From Naegleria gruberi (Eukaryota): 8,183 bases of DNA. Shown piece by piece: positions 18 through 8,183 of the stretch. The notes below the pieces were generated by a model, which did not search any database, was not told the DNA's origin, and saw only the letters and a list, made by a program, of their open reading frames with translations. Numbering within the stretch: position 1 is the stretch's first letter; each line of letters begins with the position of its first letter. Both the position numbers and the translations under genes were made by a program. The stretch lies in NCBI GenBank assembly GCA_000004985.1, contig GG739082.1; one strand, written 5' to 3'.

Positions 18-794
18 TTGAACGCAGCTAATTTCGAGCAGAACTTTGATATTGCTATTTCTAATTGTTTCGACATGTTCATTGTAGTTGGTGGATCATC
101 ATTGAAGATTTTCGATAAATCAAAAGCTGTCACCTCTGAAAATTCCCTTTTATTTAATATCAAGTATAGGGAATTTTCGTTTCATTGCTTGCGATTGGTG
201 ACTGAGAATTCAGAGGAATTTATTTATGCAAGTAAAAGTGGAGGAATTATTAAAATTAGAGTGAAGGATTTGATGGAAGGAAAGGAAGGAATTGTGTGGG
301 AATGTAAAAAATCAAACACGAATATTTGGGGATTGGATTTGATGGGAAATCAAGTGTTTTTTATAGATTACAATAGATCAGTAATTTGTAAAGCAAATAA
401 GGAAACAGGAAAGGATGAAGGTGAAGATGTTATTCATTTATTTAATGGATATGGAATTGAATTTTTATCTGAAAGTGAAATATTGACATCCAATCAACAA
501 TCTTTAGAAATTTTCAAAAAACAAGAAAATAATTGGATTTCTAAAAGAAGAGTGGTTATTCCCAAGTGTTCTACCGCTTATTCAATATTTTATGAGAAGG
601 AATCTGGCTTAGTTTACTTATCTGATACTGAAAATAATCGAATTTTTGTCATTAGATTGTTTGATTTCTCAATTGTTAAAACATTTGAAGATTCTAATGC
701 CATTTCAAGAAATTTCGGATTGTTTGTTGATAAGCGAACTGGTTTACTCTATGTTGTTAATAACAAATCCAAAGAAATTTCTATTTTTCAATAA
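18..794 (+). CDS. NHL-repeat-like beta-propeller protein. The frame is open from the window start; the TTG start at 18 is an ORF-caller artefact. The first in-frame ATG is at 75, so the gene is either 5'-partial or starts at 75. The stop is TAA at 792-794.
   Basis: Continuous 258-codon ORF. Its motifs recur with about 40-aa spacing and resemble NHL or six-bladed propeller blades: GLVYLSDTENNRIFVI, GLLYVVNNKSKEISIF, NQVFFIDYNRSVICKA, GGIIKIRV. There are no upstream stops in frame back to nt 3. I identified the family from the motifs by eye, not by a search. Confidence 0.5.
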   Translation: MNAANFEQNFDIAISNCFDMFIVVGGSSLKIFDKSKAVTSENSLLFNIKYREFSFHCLRLVTENSEEFIYASKSGGIIKIRVKDLMEGKEGIVWECKKSNTNIWGLDLMGNQVFFIDYNRSVICKANKETGKDEGEDVIHLFNGYGIEFLSESEILTSNQQSLEIFKKQENNWISKRRVVIPKCSTAYSIFYEKESGLVYLSDTENNRIFVIRLFDFSIVKTFEDSNAISRNFGLFVDKRTGLLYVVNNKSKEISIFQ

Positions 795-935: not shown

Positions 936-1621
936 ATGTCTCACATTGACGATGAACTATCCTGCTGCTGTTGTTGCATTCTCATCGATGGATCATCTCT
1001 CTCTCATCAACCCTCCAACAATGTGTATTACCATAAATTGAGAGAAAAATTCAATGAACAACGTAAAGGCTATACTAAATGGTTACAAGCTCAAGTAAAT
1101 TTCATTCAATTACAGAGATTACGTAGAAGATCCGAATCAATTGCAGCATCACACACTTATCAGCATCTTCCTATTGAATTTTTATTTGATGATTATTTGG
1201 TAATTATGGCAATGAAGAATTTTCCATTGAATTATTCACATATTGTAAAACAATTACCATTTGTTTTGAATAGGACATCATTATTTAGACTTGCGTTTAA
1301 GAATTGTTATTCAGATCTGTTGTTTCAAGCCTCAGAAACAGCCAGGAAAGATCCAGAAATTGCACAAATGATTGTTCACTTTAAAGGAACAGAATTGGAA
1401 TTTCTCTCTGACGAATGTAAAGCCAATAGGAATGTGGTGTTATCTCCCGTTGGAAGTAGTGGATCAATGATTGAATTTGCGAGTGAAGAGTTGAGAAATG
1501 ATGAGGAAATTATTTTGGCTGCTGTTAAAAATGGTTACGTCAACTTTCCCAAATCAATATTCGAAAGATATCCTCAAGTAGCTGTGGAATGTATGGTTTT
1601 ATATTGGAATTCTAGAGTGAG
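936..1621 (+). CDS. DUF4116-repeat protein, 3'-truncated by the assembly gap (only the N-terminal 228 aa are visible).
   Basis: ATG at 936 in the A-rich context ttttaaaaaaATG, with an in-frame TAA at 915-917 upstream. The C-terminal part carries at least two DUF4116-type repeats: ...TELEFLSDECKANRNVVLSPVGSSGSMIEFASEELRNDEEIILAAVKNGY... These match the DUF4116 consensus (A/L x x A S E E L R N D x E I V L x A V x x N G). The ORF is still open where the N run begins at 1622. Confidence 0.7.
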
Positions 1622-4600
1622 NNNNNNNNNNNNNNNNNNNNNNNNNNNNNNNNNNNNNNNNNNNNNNNNNNNNNNNNNNNNNNNNNNNNNNNNNNNNNNN
1701 NNNNNNNNNNNNNNNNNNNNNNNNNNNNNNNNNNNNNNNNNNNNNNNNNNNNNNNNNNNNNNNNNNNNNNNNNNNNNNNNNNNNNNNNNNNNNNNNNNNN
1801 NNNNNNNNNNNNNNNNNNNNNNNNNNNNNNNNNNNNNNNNNNNNNNNNNNNNNNNNNNNNNNNNNNNNNNNNNNNNNNNNNNNNNNNNNNNNNNNNNNNN
1901 NNNNNNNNNNNNNNNNNNNNNNNNNNNNNNNNNNNNNNNNNNNNNNNNNNNNNNNNNNNNNNNNNNNNNNNNNNNNNNNNNNNNNNNNNNNNNNNNNNNN
2001 NNNNNNNNNNNNNNNNNNNNNNNNNNNNNNNNNNNNNNNNNNNNNNNNNNNNNNNNNNNNNNNNNNNNNNNNNNNNNNNNNNNNNNNNNNNNNNNNNNNN
2101 NNNNNNNNNNNNNNNNNNNNNNNNNNNNNNNNNNNNNNNNNNNNNNNNNNNNNNNNNNNNNNNNNNNNNNNNNNNNNNNNNNNNNNNNNNNNNNNNNNNN
2201 NNNNNNNNNNNNNNNNNNNNNNNNNNNNNNNNNNNNNNNNNNNNNNNNNNNNNNNNNNNNNNNNNNNNNNNNNNNNNNNNNNNNNNNNNNNNNNNNNNNN
2301 NNNNNNNNNNNNNNNNNNNNNNNNNNNNNNNNNNNNNNNNNNNNNNNNNNNNNNNNNNNNNNNNNNNNNNNNNNNNNNNNNNNNNNNNNNNNNNNNNNNN
2401 NNNNNNNNNNNNNNNNNNNNNNNNNNNNNNNNNNNNNNNNNNNNNNNNNNNNNNNNNNNNNNNNNNNNNNNNNNNNNNNNNNNNNNNNNNNNNNNNNNNN
2501 NNNNNNNNNNNNNNNNNNNNNNNNNNNNNNNNNNNNNNNNNNNNNNNNNNNNNNNNNNNNNNNNNNNNNNNNNNNNNNNNNNNNNNNNNNNNNNNNNNNN
2601 NNNNNNNNNNNNNNNNNNNNNNNNNNNNNNNNNNNNNNNNNNNNNNNNNNNNNNNNNNNNNNNNNNNNNNNNNNNNNNNNNNNNNNNNNNNNNNNNNNNN
2701 NNNNNNNNNNNNNNNNNNNNNNNNNNNNNNNNNNNNNNNNNNNNNNNNNNNNNNNNNNNNNNNNNNNNNNNNNNNNNNNNNNNNNNNNNNNNNNNNNNNN
2801 NNNNNNNNNNNNNNNNNNNNNNNNNNNNNNNNNNNNNNNNNNNNNNNNNNNNNNNNNNNNNNNNNNNNNNNNNNNNNNNNNNNNNNNNNNNNNNNNNNNN
2901 NNNNNNNNNNNNNNNNNNNNNNNNNNNNNNNNNNNNNNNNNNNNNNNNNNNNNNNNNNNNNNNNNNNNNNNNNNNNNNNNNNNNNNNNNNNNNNNNNNNN
3001 NNNNNNNNNNNNNNNNNNNNNNNNNNNNNNNNNNNNNNNNNNNNNNNNNNNNNNNNNNNNNNNNNNNNNNNNNNNNNNNNNNNNNNNNNNNNNNNNNNNN
3101 NNNNNNNNNNNNNNNNNNNNNNNNNNNNNNNNNNNNNNNNNNNNNNNNNNNNNNNNNNNNNNNNNNNNNNNNNNNNNNNNNNNNNNNNNNNNNNNNNNNN
3201 NNNNNNNNNNNNNNNNNNNNNNNNNNNNNNNNNNNNNNNNNNNNNNNNNNNNNNNNNNNNNNNNNNNNNNNNNNNNNNNNNNNNNNNNNNNNNNNNNNNN
3301 NNNNNNNNNNNNNNNNNNNNNNNNNNNNNNNNNNNNNNNNNNNNNNNNNNNNNNNNNNNNNNNNNNNNNNNNNNNNNNNNNNNNNNNNNNNNNNNNNNNN
3401 NNNNNNNNNNNNNNNNNNNNNNNNNNNNNNNNNNNNNNNNNNNNNNNNNNNNNNNNNNNNNNNNNNNNNNNNNNNNNNNNNNNNNNNNNNNNNNNNNNNN
3501 NNNNNNNNNNNNNNNNNNNNNNNNNNNNNNNNNNNNNNNNNNNNNNNNNNNNNNNNNNNNNNNNNNNNNNNNNNNNNNNNNNNNNNNNNNNNNNNNNNNN
3601 NNNNNNNNNNNNNNNNNNNNNNNNNNNNNNNNNNNNNNNNNNNNNNNNNNNNNNNNNNNNNNNNNNNNNNNNNNNNNNNNNNNNNNNNNNNNNNNNNNNN
3701 NNNNNNNNNNNNNNNNNNNNNNNNNNNNNNNNNNNNNNNNNNNNNNNNNNNNNNNNNNNNNNNNNNNNNNNNNNNNNNNNNNNNNNNNNNNNNNNNNNNN
3801 NNNNNNNNNNNNNNNNNNNNNNNNNNNNNNNNNNNNNNNNNNNNNNNNNNNNNNNNNNNNNNNNNNNNNNNNNNNNNNNNNNNNNNNNNNNNNNNNNNNN
3901 NNNNNNNNNNNNNNNNNNNNNNNNNNNNNNNNNNNNNNNNNNNNNNNNNNNNNNNNNNNNNNNNNNNNNNNNNNNNNNNNNNNNNNNNNNNNNNNNNNNN
4001 NNNNNNNNNNNNNNNNNNNNNNNNNNNNNNNNNNNNNNNNNNNNNNNNNNNNNNNNNNNNNNNNNNNNNNNNNNNNNNNNNNNNNNNNNNNNNNNNNNNN
4101 NNNNNNNNNNNNNNNNNNNNNNNNNNNNNNNNNNNNNNNNNNNNNNNNNNNNNNNNNNNNNNNNNNNNNNNNNNNNNNNNNNNNNNNNNNNNNNNNNNNN
4201 NNNNNNNNNNNNNNNNNNNNNNNNNNNNNNNNNNNNNNNNNNNNNNNNNNNNNNNNNNNNNNNNNNNNNNNNNNNNNNNNNNNNNNNNNNNNNNNNNNNN
4301 NNNNNNNNNNNNNNNNNNNNNNNNNNNNNNNNNNNNNNNNNNNNNNNNNNNNNNNNNNNNNNNNNNNNNNNNNNNNNNNNNNNNNNNNNNNNNNNNNNNN
4401 NNNNNNNNNNNNNNNNNNNNNNNNNNNNNNNNNNNNNNNNNNNNNNNNNNNNNNNNNNNNNNNNNNNNNNNNNNNNNNNNNNNNNNNNNNNNNNNNNNNN
4501 NNNNNNNNNNNNNNNNNNNNNNNNNNNNNNNNNNNNNNNNNNNNNNNNNNNNNNNNNNNNNNNNNNNNNNNNNNNNNNNNNNNNNNNNNNNNNNNNNNNN

Positions 4601-6214
4601 NNNNNNNNNNNNNNNNNNNNNNNNNNNNNNNNNNNNNNNNNNNNNNNNNNNNNNNNNNNNNNNNNNNNNNNNNNNNNNNNNNNNNNNNNNNNNNNNNNNN
4701 NNNNNNNNNNNNNNNNNNNNNNNNNNNNNNNNNNNNNNNNNNNNNNNNNNNNNNNNNNNNNNNNNNNNNNNNNNNNNNNNNNNNNNNNNNNNNNNNNNNN
4801 NNNNNNNNNNNNNNNNNNNNNNNNNNNNNNNNNNNNNNNNNNNNNNNNNNNNNNNNNNNNNNNNNNNNNNNNNNNNNNNNNNNNNNNNNNNNNNNNNNNN
4901 NNNNNNNNNNNNNNNNNNNNNNNNNNNNNNNNNNNNNNNNNNNNNNNNNNNNNNNNNNNNNNNNNNNNNNNNNNNNNNNNNNNNNNNNNNNNNNNNNNNN
5001 NNNNNNNNNNNNNNNNNNNNNNNNNNNNNNNNNNNNNNNNNNNNNNNNNNNNNNNNNNNNNNNNNNNNNNNNNNNNNNNNNNNNNNNNNNNNNNNNNNNN
5101 NNNNNNNNNNNNNNNNNNNNNNNNNNNNNNNNNNNNNNNNNNNNNNNNNNNNNNNNNNNNNNNNNNNNNNNNNNNNNNNNNNNNNNNNNNNNNNNNNNNN
5201 NNNNNNNNNNNNNNNNNNNNNNNNNNNNNNNNNNNNNNNNNNNNNNNNNNNNNNNNNNNNNNNNNNNNNNNNNNNNNNNNNNNNNNNNNNNNNNNNNNNN
5301 NNNNNNNNNNNNNNNNNNNNNNNNNNNNNNNNNNNNNNNNNNNNNNNNNNNNNNNNNNNNNNNNNNNNNNNNNNNNNNNNNNNNNNNNNNNNNNNNNNNN
5401 NNNNNNNNNNNNNNNNNNNNNNNNNNNNNNNNNNNNNNNNNNNNNNNNNNNNNNNNNNNNNNNNNNNNNNNNNNNNNNNNNNNNNNNNNNNNNNNNNNNN
5501 NNNNNNNNNNNNNNNNNNNNNNNNNNNNNNNNNNNNNNNNNNNNNNNNNNNNNNNNNNNNNNNNNNNNNNNNNNNNNNNNNNNNNNNNNNNNNNNNNNNN
5601 NNNNNNNNNNNNNNNNNNNNNNNNNNNNNNNNNNNNNNNNNNNNNNNNNNNNNNNNNNNNNNNNNNNNNNNNNNNNNNNNNNNNNNNNNNNNNNNNNNNN
5701 NNNNNNNNNNNNNNNNNNNNNNNNNNNNNNNNNNNNNNNNNNNNNNNNNNNNNNNNNNNNNNNNNNNNNNNNNNNNNNNNNNNNNNNNNNNNNNNNNNNN
5801 NNNNNNNNNNNNNNNNNNNNNNNNNNNNNNNNNNNNNNNNNNNNNNNNNNNNNNNNNNNNNNNNNNNNNNNNNNNNNNNNNNNNNNNNNNNNNNNNNNNN
5901 NNNNNNNNNNNNNNNNNNNNNNNNNNNNNNNNNNNNNNNNNNNNNNNNNNNNNNNNNNNNNNNNNNNNNNNNNNNNNNNNNNNNNNNNNNNNNNNNNNNN
6001 NNNNNNNNNNNNNNNNNNNNNNNNNNNNNNNNNNNNNNNNNNNNNNNNNNNNNNNNNNNNNNNNNNNNNNNNNNNNNNNNNNNNNNNNNNNNNNNNNNNN
6101 NNNNNNNNNNNNNNNNNNNNNNNNNNNNNNNNNNNNNNNNNNNNNNNNNNNNNNNNNNNNNNNNNNNNNNNNNNNNNNNNNNNNNNNNNNNNNNNNNNNN
6201 NNNNNNNNNNNNNN
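1622..6214. other. Assembly gap of 4,593 N. The X-containing ORFs in the track (936..6227, 1574..6223, 1599..6443, 1612..6255) come from translating this run.
   Basis: Uninterrupted n characters from 1622 to 6214. Confidence 0.99.
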
Positions 6215-6462
6215 CAGAGGCAATTAACATACACCCAACGAATACTATAACACATCCTCCAACTACAAATGATACAACTTGAATGGCAGTTGCATATTCT
6301 TTTGGAATGAAATCAAATCTCTTAATACCAGACATGATACCAATTAGGAGAATGATCAAAATGGCCAACATGACAAATAATGTGGCAATAATGGTCATTG
6401 AGGTTCGAATAATTTTGGAGGTTTCCTTAGTGATGGCTCTCATCAGTGTAGCTGTACTCCAA
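6215..6462 (-). CDS. Exon 2 of the same membrane protein gene, truncated at its 3' end by the gap.
   Basis: In frame with exon 1 after splicing: F-WSTATLMRAITKETSKIIRTSMTIIATLFVMLAILIILLIGIMSGIKRFDFIPKEYATAIQVVSFVVGGCVIVFVGCMLIAS... It adds two more predicted TM helices (TM4 and TM5). The frame is still open at the gap edge. Confidence 0.6.
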
Positions 6463-6506
6463 CTAGTATTTGTGTGTTAAAATATTTTGGAAATTCGAAT
6501 ACTTAC
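6463..6506 (-). other. Spliceosomal intron, 44 nt, GTAAGTATTC...ATACTAG on the minus strand.
   Basis: The minus strand reads ...AACATGTT|GTAAGTATTCGAATTTCCAAAATATTTTAACACACAAATACTAG|TTGGAGT... The donor GTAAGT is consensus and the acceptor ends in AG. Removing the 44 nt joins TT + T into TTT (Phe) and continues in frame into the downstream 82-codon open frame, which is rich in hydrophobic helices. Confidence 0.65.
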
Positions 6507-6958
6507 AACATGTTTTGAACGAAAACAATGATTGAAAACAGTGTCAAGAAATTACTTGTCATTGTAAAACTGTTCAGACCAAGAAATACTTGCATGGCAA
6601 TAAATAATTTCCATTCAATTAATTGTCCTGCTTCAATCTTTTCTCTGATGACTAATTGTAAGGTTTCGTTTACAACTCTTACAAGTAAACTAAATATTTG
6701 AACTGTTACATAAATACCAGTCATAATGAACAGTATCGTTTGGTTTCTCTTTAGTTTCAGTTTTCTTGTAACTCTAATGATGAATCCAATAAGAACAAAA
6801 ATGTAAACTGAAAAGAGAATGAGAAATATTATTGTATTCGAAAGCACTAAACCACTGGCCCAAATAGGTTTCATTTGATCCAAGGTAACATTCGTATAAC
6901 CTTCACCATTTACAATTACTGATGATGAATCTAATAGTGCAAATAAACGTTCTGACAT
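6507..6958 (-). CDS. Exon 1 (with start codon) of a multi-pass, 7TM-like membrane protein gene. It ends in codon phase 2 at the GTAAGT donor.
   Basis: ATG at 6958-6956 in the context acaaaaaATG. The ORF encodes hydrophobic helices ASGLVLSNTIIFLILFSVYIFVLIGFII, TILFIMTGIYVTVQIFSLLV and WKLFIAMQVFLGLNSFTMTSNFLTLFSIIVFV. N-glycosylation sequons NVT and NET sit in predicted extracellular segments, and the predicted cytosolic loop RVTRKLKLKRNQ is basic (positive-inside rule). The apparent stop at 6505-6503 is the TAA inside the donor GTAAGT. Confidence 0.65.
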
Positions 6959-7488: not shown

Positions 7489-8183
7489 TTAATTTTTTCT
7501 AATCCAATCCGCTACCCGTTTTGTCGCCTGTTCTTGAACTTCTAAACTAAACACCAGTAGATCTGTTTTACCATCCACATAGGCATCTTTTGCGAGACTT
7601 AAACACTCACTAAACAATCTGTCAGCTACTCTGCCATTGTACTGTTCTAATCTAGTTTGTGGAATTTGGGTTTCTAGTAATTGCAAGAGATGCTCTTCTT
7701 CAAATTGGATAAGATTATCTGGATGTTCTATGGAATACTTTTTAACCAACAAGACCAATATGTTGACGATATCTGAATATGATAAAGCAGAAAATGTAAT
7801 GTGTTTTCTAATTCTAGATTTCAATCCTGGGTTAATCTCTATGAAATTAGCAATTTCTTGGTCATAGCCTGCAAAAACAATAATTGGAGTATCGTCTTTG
7901 CCACTAGTGAGTTCCGTCATGATAACCTCAATACATTCCTTTCCAAAATCATTGCTTGATTTTCCTCTTGAAAGAGAGTATGCCTCATCAATAAACAGCA
8001 CACCACCTCTGGCTTCATCAATCACCTTTTGAGTTTTTGGTGCTGTGTGTCCTACATATTCACCAACAAGATCGGNCCTTCCCACTTCTTTGACAACATT
8101 CTTCTTGATAATTTGGAGCTTGTGAAGAATATTAGAAACCAATCTAGCAACCGTTGTTTTGGCAGTTCCTGGTGGTCCTCTGA
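7489..8183 (-). CDS. AAA+ ATPase of the CbbX/SpoVK family. It is 5'-partial: the N-terminus lies beyond the window end. The TTG at 8142 scored as Met in the ORF track is internal (Leu).
   Basis: Reading upstream of 8142 the frame stays open to the window edge: RGPPGTAKTTVARLVSNILHKLQ... The Walker A-like motif is GPPGTAKT. Walker B is GGVLFIDEAYSL. The downstream block IIVFAGYDQEIANFIEINPGLKSRIRKHITF parallels the CbbX sensor and arginine-finger region (ILAGY...NPGFRSRI...F). The stop is TAA at 7491-7489. An n at 8077 gives one X residue. Confidence 0.85.
   Translation of the reverse strand, partial: RGPPGTAKTTVARLVSNILHKLQIIKKNVVKEVGRXDLVGEYVGHTAPKTQKVIDEARGGVLFIDEAYSLSRGKSSNDFGKECIEVIMTELTSGKDDTPIIVFAGYDQEIANFIEINPGLKSRIRKHITFSALSYSDIVNILVLLVKKYSIEHPDNLIQFEEEHLLQLLETQIPQTRLEQYNGRVADRLFSECLSLAKDAYVDGKTDLLVFSLEVQEQATKRVADWIRKN

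What the first reader, a model, noticed from the sequence alone, without database searches (positions are those of the whole stretch)
7489..8183. CbbX/SpoVK-type AAA+ ATPase in a eukaryotic context, with a deviant P-loop (GPPGTAKT: Ala replaces the second invariant Gly)
The protein aligns by eye over its whole visible length with the CbbX (red-type RuBisCO activase) / SpoVK branch of AAA+. The Walker A is GPPGTAKTTVA where CbbX has GNPGTGKTTVA. The sixth P-loop position (GxxxxGK[ST]) is encoded by GCC (Ala), a single transversion from GGC (Gly). That glycine is almost invariant because its backbone contacts the beta-phosphate. The change is therefore either a sequencing error, a degenerate or regulatory pseudo-ATPase, or a genuine lineage variant. 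Separately, this bacterial or plastid-type family is not part of the core eukaryotic AAA+ set, so it is a candidate horizontally acquired or organelle-related gene. The N-terminal region that would show a transit peptide or extra domains lies outside the window.
Basis: partly seen in the sequence, partly recalled or inferred. Interest (0 to 1): 0.5.

Follow-up and report, generated by a model that had tools for sequence, protein, structure and literature searches.

The report
Truncated CbbX-like ATPase gene in Naegleria
The end of this small Naegleria gruberi scaffold carries the last 230 codons of an unannotated, bacterial-type "CbbX/SpoVK/EccA" AAA+ chaperone ATPase. Its ATP-binding loop has one alanine where glycine is usual, a change that also occurs naturally in working ATPases, so the finding is real but fairly ordinary.

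Summary
On the minus strand, 8181→7492 (stop 7489-7491) encodes 230 residues of an AAA+ module. It matches SpoVK, CbbX and EccA models at E 1e-42 to 1e-47, and CbbX is the best solved sequence and fold. The Walker A reads GPPGTAKT, with Ala7 = GCC at 8161-8163.

The window is a whole 8,183-bp Naegleria gruberi scaffold. It contains a 4.6-kb N gap and a neighbouring gene with a 44-nt spliceosomal intron. The ATPase gene has host-like codon usage, no gene model, and no relative above about 52% identity.

Every other catalytic element is intact, so a decayed pseudo-ATPase is unlikely. These are Lys8/Thr9, Walker B D65/E66, pore-loop Tyr42, the sensor-1 GY, NPGLKSR with Arg123, and sensor-2 Arg184.

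Ala at this P-loop position is rare in the family (8 of 545 motifs; 0 of 120 closest hits) but has precedents. All four otherwise intact modules of a Kutzneria protein read GNPGTAKT, and MCM helicases read GDPGTAKS.

The codon lies 20 nt from the scaffold end, and an ambiguous base sits 85 nt from it. A base-call error therefore cannot be excluded without reads.

Bacterial origin is plausible, because the closest named hits are bacterial. My tree is unresolved, however, and eukaryotic members of this clade are already described. This is a new member of a known kind, of low interest.

The parts
7492..8181 (-). Coding sequence for the C-terminal 230 residues of a SpoVK-CbbX-EccA-clade AAA+ ATPase. 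It runs from the Walker A to the C-terminus and is truncated at the scaffold end. 8182-8183 are the last two bases of the preceding codon.
   Evidence: Open frame; family matches; fold match to CbbX; host-like codon usage with GC3 0.29
7489..7491 (-). TAA stop codon of the ATPase gene
8155..8178 (-). Walker A / P-loop G2-P-P-G-T-A-K-T9. It deviates at Ala7 (GCC, 8161-8163) and retains Lys8 and Thr9.
   Evidence: Ala is 0/120 in the closest hits and 8/545 motifs in 150 representative relatives.
8074..8076 (-). Codon 36 containing the ambiguous base n at 8076 (NCC = Thr/Pro/Ala/Ser). This marks low base quality near this scaffold end.
8056..8058 (-). Pore-loop-1 tyrosine Tyr42 in DLVGEYVGHTAPKT, equivalent to CbbX Tyr114
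   Evidence: Alignments. The role of Y114 is from PMC5437159.
7984..8001 (-). Walker B V61-L-F-I-D65-E66
   Evidence: Invariant columns D65 and E66
7864..7869 (-). [quoted passage not shown]
   Evidence: Invariant A104, G105, Y106. Clade definition from PMC11513918.
7813..7833 (-). N117-P-G-L-K-S-R123: conserved Asn plus arginine finger (second region of homology)
   Evidence: Invariant N117, P118, G119, S122, R123
7630..7641 (-). Sensor-2 motif Y-N-G-R184 in the helical lid; aligns with ANAR/GNGR of CbbX/SpoVK-type proteins
   Evidence: Invariant R184

Best explanation
This is the 3' part of a real, unannotated nuclear gene of Naegleria gruberi. It encodes a member of the SpoVK-CbbX-EccA-like clade of classical AAA+ ATPases.

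By homology it should assemble into a ring, bind ATP between subunits, and use the pore-loop tyrosine Tyr42 to pull on a segment of one dedicated client protein. ATP contacts would come from Walker A Lys8/Thr9, Walker B Asp65/Glu66, arginine finger Arg123 and sensor-2 Arg184. That makes it a narrow-specificity remodelling chaperone rather than a protease partner.

The client is unknown and is not RuBisCO. It would be specified by the N-terminal region, which the assembly lacks.

The alanine at the sixth P-loop position is most likely a true lineage variant that still permits ATP binding and hydrolysis, as in MCM helicases and a four-module Kutzneria relative.

Shown: sequence, frame, family, motif integrity, host context. 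Inferred: oligomeric state, threading mechanism, activity of the Ala variant.
For: Family and fold.

Clade signatures from PMC11513918, namely GY, the Asn before the Arg finger, and the sensor-2 Arg, are all present and fall in invariant alignment columns.

Host gene: the scaffold is N. gruberi, a neighbouring gene is spliced, and GC3 is 0.29 with AGA-Arg preference, as in the neighbouring genes.

The frame is intact for 230 codons.

Ala precedent within the family: Kutzneria P0129 has GNPGTAKT in 4 of 4 modules, each with intact Walker B, GY, Arg finger and sensor 2.

Ala precedent in an active AAA+ family: S. solfataricus MCM reads GDPGTAKS and P. furiosus MCM reads GDPGVAKS in solved structures.

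Codon argument: an error would require an original GGC, which is a minor Gly codon here (5/42). GCC is a common Ala codon (9/38).

My rough estimate used about 1% natural Ala in the family, a 0.1-5% per-base error rate at a poor contig end, and those codon frequencies. It gives roughly 2-45% for a base-call error. This is an inference, not a measurement.
Against: There is no independent copy of the sequence. No identical or near-identical protein exists in 5.8 billion clusters or 1.84 billion representatives, and no close metagenomic locus was found.

The codon is 20 nt from the scaffold end, and an uncalled base lies 85 nt from it.

None of the 120 closest homologues has Ala.

No expression evidence and no gene model exist.

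From memory, not tested here: the equivalent Gly-to-Ala change in Ras (G15A) greatly lowers nucleotide affinity, so tolerance depends on context.
Confidence: 0.62

Rival explanations
1. Base-call error. The true codon is GGC (Gly) and the P-loop is the canonical GPPGTGKT. The apparent variant comes from low-quality sequence at the very end of a small, poorly covered scaffold.
For: The codon lies 20-22 nt from the scaffold end. Ambiguous bases occur at 8076 and at position 2. The scaffold is 56% gap. A single transversion suffices. Gly is found in 120/120 of the closest homologues.
Against: GGC is a minor Gly codon in this window (5/42), and the two other P-loop glycines use GGA. The surrounding 230 codons have no frameshift or stop. 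Natural Ala variants exist in this family and in MCM.
Confidence: 0.25
2. Genuine Ala, but in a module with weakened or non-hydrolytic nucleotide binding. It would be a regulatory or structural subunit, for example the last module of a multi-module protein, comparable to the mainly structural plastid CbbX subunit in Cyanidioschyzon.
For: Many relatives carry 3-8 tandem modules, and the query often matches their last module best. Some relatives have a degenerate first module with GNSGTAKS. A division of labour between CbbX isoforms is documented (PMC5437159). Ras G15A has reduced nucleotide affinity (from memory).
Against: In the degenerate GNSGTAKS modules the Walker B, GY and sensor 2 are also lost. 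Here all of them are intact and sit in invariant columns.
Confidence: 0.1
3. Bacterial contamination, or a very recent bacterial insertion, at the scaffold end.
For: The closest named homologues are bacterial.
Against: The best identity anywhere is only about 44-52%. GC3 of 0.29 and the codon preferences match the neighbouring Naegleria genes. The gene lies on the same contig, 530 bp from an intron-containing gene.
Confidence: 0.01
4. A functional red-type RuBisCO activase (true CbbX), or a relic of a lost plastid.
For: CbbX is the best PDB sequence and fold match.
Against: The query scores no better against the CbbX model than against SpoVK or EccA (150.6, 160.4 and 146.1 bits), and all are far below the cut-offs. 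It does not fall in a supported CbbX clade. CbbX is tied to red-type RuBisCO operons or plastids (PMC5437159), whereas Naegleria is an aplastidic heterotroph (general knowledge).
Confidence: 0.01

Closest known systems
CbbX, red-type RuBisCO activase (Rhodobacter sphaeroides; PDB 3SYL/3SYK/3ZUH)
   Same: It is the best solved-structure match by sequence (E 1.4e-36; about 45% identity over the core in my alignment) and by fold. It shares the pore-loop motif DLVG-Y-GHTAPKT, Walker B LFIDEAY, AGY, NPG..SR and the sensor-2 Arg.
   Different: Walker A has Ala in place of the second Gly. The lid is divergent (AF2 pLDDT about 50; Pfam AAA_lid_6 not detected). There is no RuBisCO context. The TIGR02880 score is 150.6 against a cut-off of 459.25. 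The N-terminus is unknown.
SpoVK (Bacillus subtilis), MurG-activating sporulation chaperone
   Same: It gives the highest NCBIfam score (160.4 bits, model positions 48-226 of 261). It belongs to the same higher-order clade and shares the clade signatures.
   Different: SpoVK proper is restricted to sporulating Bacillota (PMC11513918). The score is far below the cut-off of 422.95, and the host here is a eukaryote.
EccA1, type VII secretion AAA+ ATPase (PDB 9LUR)
   Same: E 9.3e-31. It has GPPGTGKTT(I/V)AR, the same 'GPPG' start as the query.
   Different: EccA has an N-terminal TPR/beta-helix domain and a T7SS context. Neither can be tested here, and neither is expected in a eukaryote.
Eukaryotic SpoVK-EccA-like proteins (SF-1 RNA-helicase fusions noted in PMC11513918; Cymbomonas tetramitiformis KAK3240587.1, a C3H1-domain protein of 4,442 aa with a 3,823-aa cluster representative)
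   Same: They show that this clade already has eukaryotic members, often large and multi-module. The Naegleria fragment could be the last module of such a protein.
   Different: Identity to them (about 37-38%) is no higher than to bacterial proteins (40-52%). No specific grouping is supported.
Kutzneria sp. AAA family ATPase HTI25389.1 (P0129)
   Same: It is the only relative found with the same GTAKT Walker A in otherwise intact modules, and all four of its modules have it.
   Different: It is actinobacterial, has four tandem modules, and starts the motif GNPG rather than GPPG. It is about 41% identical and does not group with the query in the tree, so its Ala variant probably arose independently.
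MCM replicative helicases (e.g. S. solfataricus MCM, PDB 3F9V)
   Same: The P-loop core is identical, G-T-A-K-[ST], in an active AAA+ ATPase.
   Different: MCM belongs to a different AAA+ clade (pre-sensor-1 hairpin superclade). The resemblance is confined to this one position.

Membership tests
Classical AAA+ ATPase (Pfam PF00004) | Profile score above the curated cut-off | tested here: met
   52.1 bits against 21.2, residues 2-130
Classical AAA+ ATPase (Pfam PF00004) | Canonical Walker A GxxGxGK[ST] | tested here: not met
   The motif is GPPGTAKT, with Ala at the sixth position and Lys8/Thr9 present. The same deviation is the norm in MCM, so it does not exclude AAA+ membership.
Classical AAA+ ATPase (Pfam PF00004) | Walker B hhhhDE and an arginine finger in the second region of homology | tested here: met
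   VLFIDE with D65/E66, and NPGLKSR with R123; all fall in invariant columns
SpoVK-EccA-like higher-order clade (PMC11513918) | [quoted passage not shown] | tested here: met
   A104-G105-Y106 are invariant in alignments A1 and A2
SpoVK-EccA-like higher-order clade (PMC11513918) | [quoted passage not shown] | tested here: met
   N117 in NPGLKSR is an invariant column. The N+4 position is Lys121 here, where R. sphaeroides CbbX has Arg, and it varies across the family.
SpoVK-EccA-like higher-order clade (PMC11513918) | Second arginine finger (sensor-2) retained | tested here: met
   R184 in YNGR aligns with ANAR/GNGR and is an invariant column
SpoVK-EccA-like higher-order clade (PMC11513918) | [quoted passage not shown] | not testable with these tools
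   This region lies beyond the scaffold end; the window starts one residue before the P-loop.
CbbX (red-type RuBisCO activase, TIGR02880) | Equivalog score of at least 459.25 bits | tested here: not met
   150.6 bits, model positions 65-211 of 284. A fragment cannot reach the cut-off, but the score is also no better than for SpoVK or EccA.
CbbX (red-type RuBisCO activase, TIGR02880) | Co-occurrence with form IC/ID RuBisCO (operon, plastid or nuclear copy in red-lineage algae) | not testable with these tools
   The criterion is from PMC5437159. The host is Naegleria gruberi, a heterotroph without a plastid (general knowledge). Its genome could not be searched here.
CbbX (red-type RuBisCO activase, TIGR02880) | Phylogenetic placement inside the CbbX clade | tested here: inconclusive
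   In an NJ tree of 114 modules with 200 bootstraps, no clade containing the query exceeds 20% support.
SpoVK (TIGR02881) | Equivalog score of at least 422.95 bits, and occurrence in sporulating Bacillota | tested here: not met
   160.4 bits. The host is a eukaryote. The phyletic restriction is from PMC11513918.
EccA (TIGR03922) | Equivalog score of at least 466.65 bits; N-terminal TPR domain; T7SS locus | tested here: not met
   146.1 bits. The N-terminus is not available, and the neighbours are eukaryotic genes.

The most novel reading that the evidence does not exclude
The alanine is real, and the gene is a Naegleria-specific bacterial-type AAA+ chaperone acquired long ago from an unsampled bacterial lineage. 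Its P-loop would have converged on the MCM-type G-T-A-K-[ST] motif and would tune nucleotide affinity or turnover for a dedicated, still unknown client.
Probability: 0.3. Interest if true: 0.35.

Novelty: new member of a known kind. Interest (0 to 1): 0.17.

Why it matters
The practical gain is modest. It adds an unannotated gene fragment to the N. gruberi catalogue and another eukaryotic representative of the SpoVK-CbbX-EccA clade of narrow-specificity chaperones, whose eukaryotic members are uncharacterised. If the Ala is real, this protein and the Kutzneria four-module protein give a natural test case for how far the "invariant" second P-loop glycine can be replaced in classical AAA+ modules. 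It does not bear on any long-standing open question.

Tried and rejected
1. I looked for an independent copy or orthologue to verify the Ala codon.
- The full-fragment search of 5.8 billion protein clusters gave a best identity of about 50% and no Naegleria hit.
- The exhaustive HMMER search of 1.84 billion representatives listed only multi-module relatives at 31-46% identity among its best 150.
- The lineage-specific C-terminal 114 aa alone found nothing at E <= 10.
- The metagenome scan gave 70 loci, the best at 53%, mostly a GVGKT subfamily and none with Ala.
- The bacterial genome scan gave 4 Firmicutes loci at 39-48%.

2. An exact look-up of the neighbouring 151-aa ORF found nothing. That ORF is in fact exon 1 of a spliced gene.

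3. Phylogeny was attempted with an NJ tree using Kimura distances on 114 modules with 200 bootstraps. Placement is unresolved. The nominal sister group, modules of P0184/P0146/P0128, has 20% support. No ML program and no eukaryote-wide sampling were available.

4. Contamination is rejected on codon usage and on linkage to an intron-containing gene.

5. A true CbbX function is rejected (see the rival explanations).

6. Literature searches for Naegleria with CbbX or SpoVK found no paper.

7. The PNAS 2024 supplement is not held, so I could not check whether Naegleria is in that paper's tree.

8. tRNA, Rfam and tandem-repeat scans of the window were all empty.

9. The query submitted had Asp at position 36. 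The codon is actually NCC (Thr/Pro/Ala/Ser). This has no material effect on the results.

Full report
**1. What is in the sequence**

The window is AT-rich (about 30-36% G+C). A run of N occupies 1622-6214, and single ambiguous bases sit at positions 2 and 8076.

Translating the reverse complement from 8181 gives one uninterrupted frame of 230 codons ending in TAA at 7489-7491. It begins RGPPGTAKTTVARLV. A script confirmed the codon coordinates:
- Ala7 is GCC, the reverse complement of 8161-8163.
- Lys8 is 8158-8160.
- The ambiguous base makes codon 36 NCC, which can encode Thr, Pro, Ala or Ser.

**2. Where it comes from**

The + strand ORF at 18-794 is 100% identical to a "predicted protein [Naegleria gruberi]" whose only contig is 8,183 bp long. 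The window is therefore an entire small scaffold of the N. gruberi assembly, and the ATPase gene is cut off by the scaffold end rather than by the window.

A minus-strand gene starting at 6958 stays open into the gap only if a 44-nt GTAAGT...TAG intron (6463-6506) is removed. This shows the eukaryotic context directly.

The ATPase ORF uses codons like its neighbours: GC3 is 0.29, Arg is mostly AGA, and GGA is the preferred Gly codon.

No gene model for the fragment exists in the protein collections.

**3. Family**

| Test | Result |
|---|---|
| NCBIfam SpoVK | 4.1e-47, 160 bits |
| NCBIfam CbbX | 5.1e-44, 151 bits |
| NCBIfam EccA | 1.3e-42, 146 bits |
| Pfam AAA | passes its cut-off |
| PDB by sequence: R. 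sphaeroides CbbX | 1.4e-36 |
| PDB by sequence: EccA1 | 9.3e-31 |
| PDB by sequence: Afg2, p97 | about 1e-6 to 1e-5 |

The three NCBIfam scores are nearly equal, and all lie far below the equivalog cut-offs.

An AlphaFold2 model built on 59 sequences has pLDDT above 90 for the alpha/beta core. The four-helix lid is at about 50. Foldseek places CbbX first at 4e-12, seven orders of magnitude ahead of Cdc48.

A 2024 study defines a "SpoVK-EccA-like" higher-order clade by four features (PMC11513918):
- a GY signature in the sensor-1 region;
- a conserved Asn before the first arginine finger;
- a retained sensor-2 arginine;
- a bihelical hairpin before the Walker A.

The first three are present here as G105-Y106, N117 and R184. 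All sit in columns that are invariant across 59 aligned sequences. The fourth lies outside the assembly.

The fragment is thus a secure member of this clade. It is not assignable to CbbX, SpoVK or EccA proper.

**4. The P-loop alanine**

Frequency of Ala at this position in relatives:
- Among the 120 closest proteins, every Walker A has Gly.
- None of the Walker A motifs matched by a pattern scan of the 70 metagenomic loci has Ala.
- Among 545 Walker A motifs in 150 representative, mostly multi-module relatives, eight have Ala.

Those eight fall into two kinds.
- Four are degenerate first modules (GNSGTAKS/GDSGTAKS). They have also lost Walker B, GY and sensor 2.
- Four are the four modules of one Kutzneria protein (HTI25389.1). 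All read GNPGTAKT, and each has intact Walker B, AGY, N(P/S)GLRSR and ANGR.

The Naegleria fragment resembles the second kind. Lys8/Thr9, Tyr42, D65/E66, G105-Y106, N117...R123 and R184 are all intact. A decayed pseudo-ATPase is therefore unlikely.

Outside the family, I recalled that MCM helicases normally have Ala or Ser at this position. The PDB sequences confirm it: S. solfataricus MCM reads GDPGTAKS and P. furiosus MCM reads GDPGVAKS. Ala at this position is therefore compatible with an active AAA+ site. It is not harmless in every P-loop protein, however. From memory, Ras G15A has very low nucleotide affinity.

**5. Could it be an error?**

No read data and no second copy of the locus could be obtained.

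Points in favour of an error:
- The codon is 20-22 nt from the scaffold end.
- An uncalled base lies 85 nt away.
- The scaffold is more than half gap.

Points against an error:
- The required original codon, GGC, is a minor Gly codon here (5 of 42), while GCC is a common Ala codon (9 of 38).
- The other two P-loop glycines use GGA.
- The 690 nt of coding sequence contain no frameshift.

I combined about 1% natural Ala in the family with a per-base error rate of 0.1-5% and these codon frequencies. This gives roughly 2-45% for an error. It is my own rough inference. I take about 25% as a working value.

**6. Origin**

Every closest relative that carries an organism name is bacterial or a red-algal plastid CbbX. 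The bacteria are Ruminococcus and other Clostridia, Schleiferilactobacillus, Leptospira, Dormibacteraeota, Kutzneria, Thermus, Proteobacteria and Myxococcales. One of the best full-length matches sits in a compact bacterial gene array next to an IS element.

Identity never exceeds about 52%, and the query is almost equidistant from CbbX, SpoVK-like and EccA sequences (41-48%). A neighbour-joining tree of 114 modules gives it no sister group with more than 20% bootstrap support.

Eukaryotic members of the clade exist:
- the literature notes SF-1 helicase fusions;
- a 3,823-4,442-aa Cymbomonas protein appeared among the hits;
- one roughly 1,650-aa five-module relative lies next to a MET10-like gene, which suggests a fungal origin (inference).

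The gene is thus bacterial-type, and an old transfer is plausible. It is not demonstrated, and the family's presence in a eukaryote is not new. Nothing speaks for an organellar link.

**7. Likely function**

By homology with CbbX, SpoVK and EccA, the protein most likely forms a ring. It would use ATP hydrolysis and the pore-loop tyrosine to remodel one dedicated client (PMC5437159, PMC11513918). The missing N-terminal region would recruit that client. RuBisCO is excluded as the client on biological grounds.

**8. Verdict**

The P-loop variant is probably genuine and probably tolerated, but it is unverifiable here. HGT is possible but unproven. This is a new, truncated member of a known clade, of low interest.

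Noticed in passing
window 1622-6214: A 4,593-nt run of N (scaffold gap) makes up 56% of the scaffold. The long mechanical ORFs at 936-6227(+), 1574-6223(-), 1599-6443(-) and 1612-6255(-) are artefacts of translating N.
   Followed up: yes
window 936-1621 (+): This is the start of a gene encoding a DUF4116-domain protein (Pfam PF13475, 6.1e-17). It runs into the gap and is truncated by it.
   Followed up: partly
window 18-794 (+): This ORF is 100% identical to an annotated N. gruberi 'predicted protein' of 239 aa, with only a weak NHL-repeat hint (E 6e-4). It identified the organism and showed that the window is a whole scaffold.
   Followed up: partly
window 6215-6958 (-): A multi-pass membrane protein gene has a 44-nt GTAAGT...TAG intron at 6463-6506. 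The spliced frame stays open into the gap. It has no Pfam family, and the unspliced 151-aa ORF is not on record.
   Followed up: partly
window 8076 and window 2: Single ambiguous bases lie near both scaffold ends. The one at 8076 is inside the ATPase gene (codon 36 = NCC). They indicate low base quality at the ends.
   Followed up: yes
P0129 (Kutzneria sp. HTI25389.1), residues 483, 763, 1042, 1319: A bacterial four-module relative has the rare GNPGTAKT Walker A in every module, while all other catalytic motifs are intact. It is a natural case of Gly-to-Ala fixed across tandem modules.
   Followed up: partly
P0139, P0195, P0227, P0269, residues about 74-85: Bacterial multi-module relatives carry an N-terminal degenerate module with G(N/D)SGTAKS. 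This module lacks Walker B, the GY signature and sensor 2, so it is probably a non-catalytic first module.
   Followed up: partly
L001-L070 (metagenome loci): Most metagenomic relatives recovered through the back-translated peptide patterns belong to a subfamily with GxPGVGKT rather than GTGKT (59 of 68 motifs). Their origin was not examined.
   Followed up: no
L078 503-3790 and 5504-10468: A 1,654-aa relative with multiple AAA modules (P0128) lies 1.7 kb from a POR_N + FAD_binding_1 + NAD_binding_1 gene. That architecture resembles fungal sulfite reductase Met10, which suggests this roughly 1,650-aa multi-module group is eukaryotic, possibly fungal.
   Followed up: no
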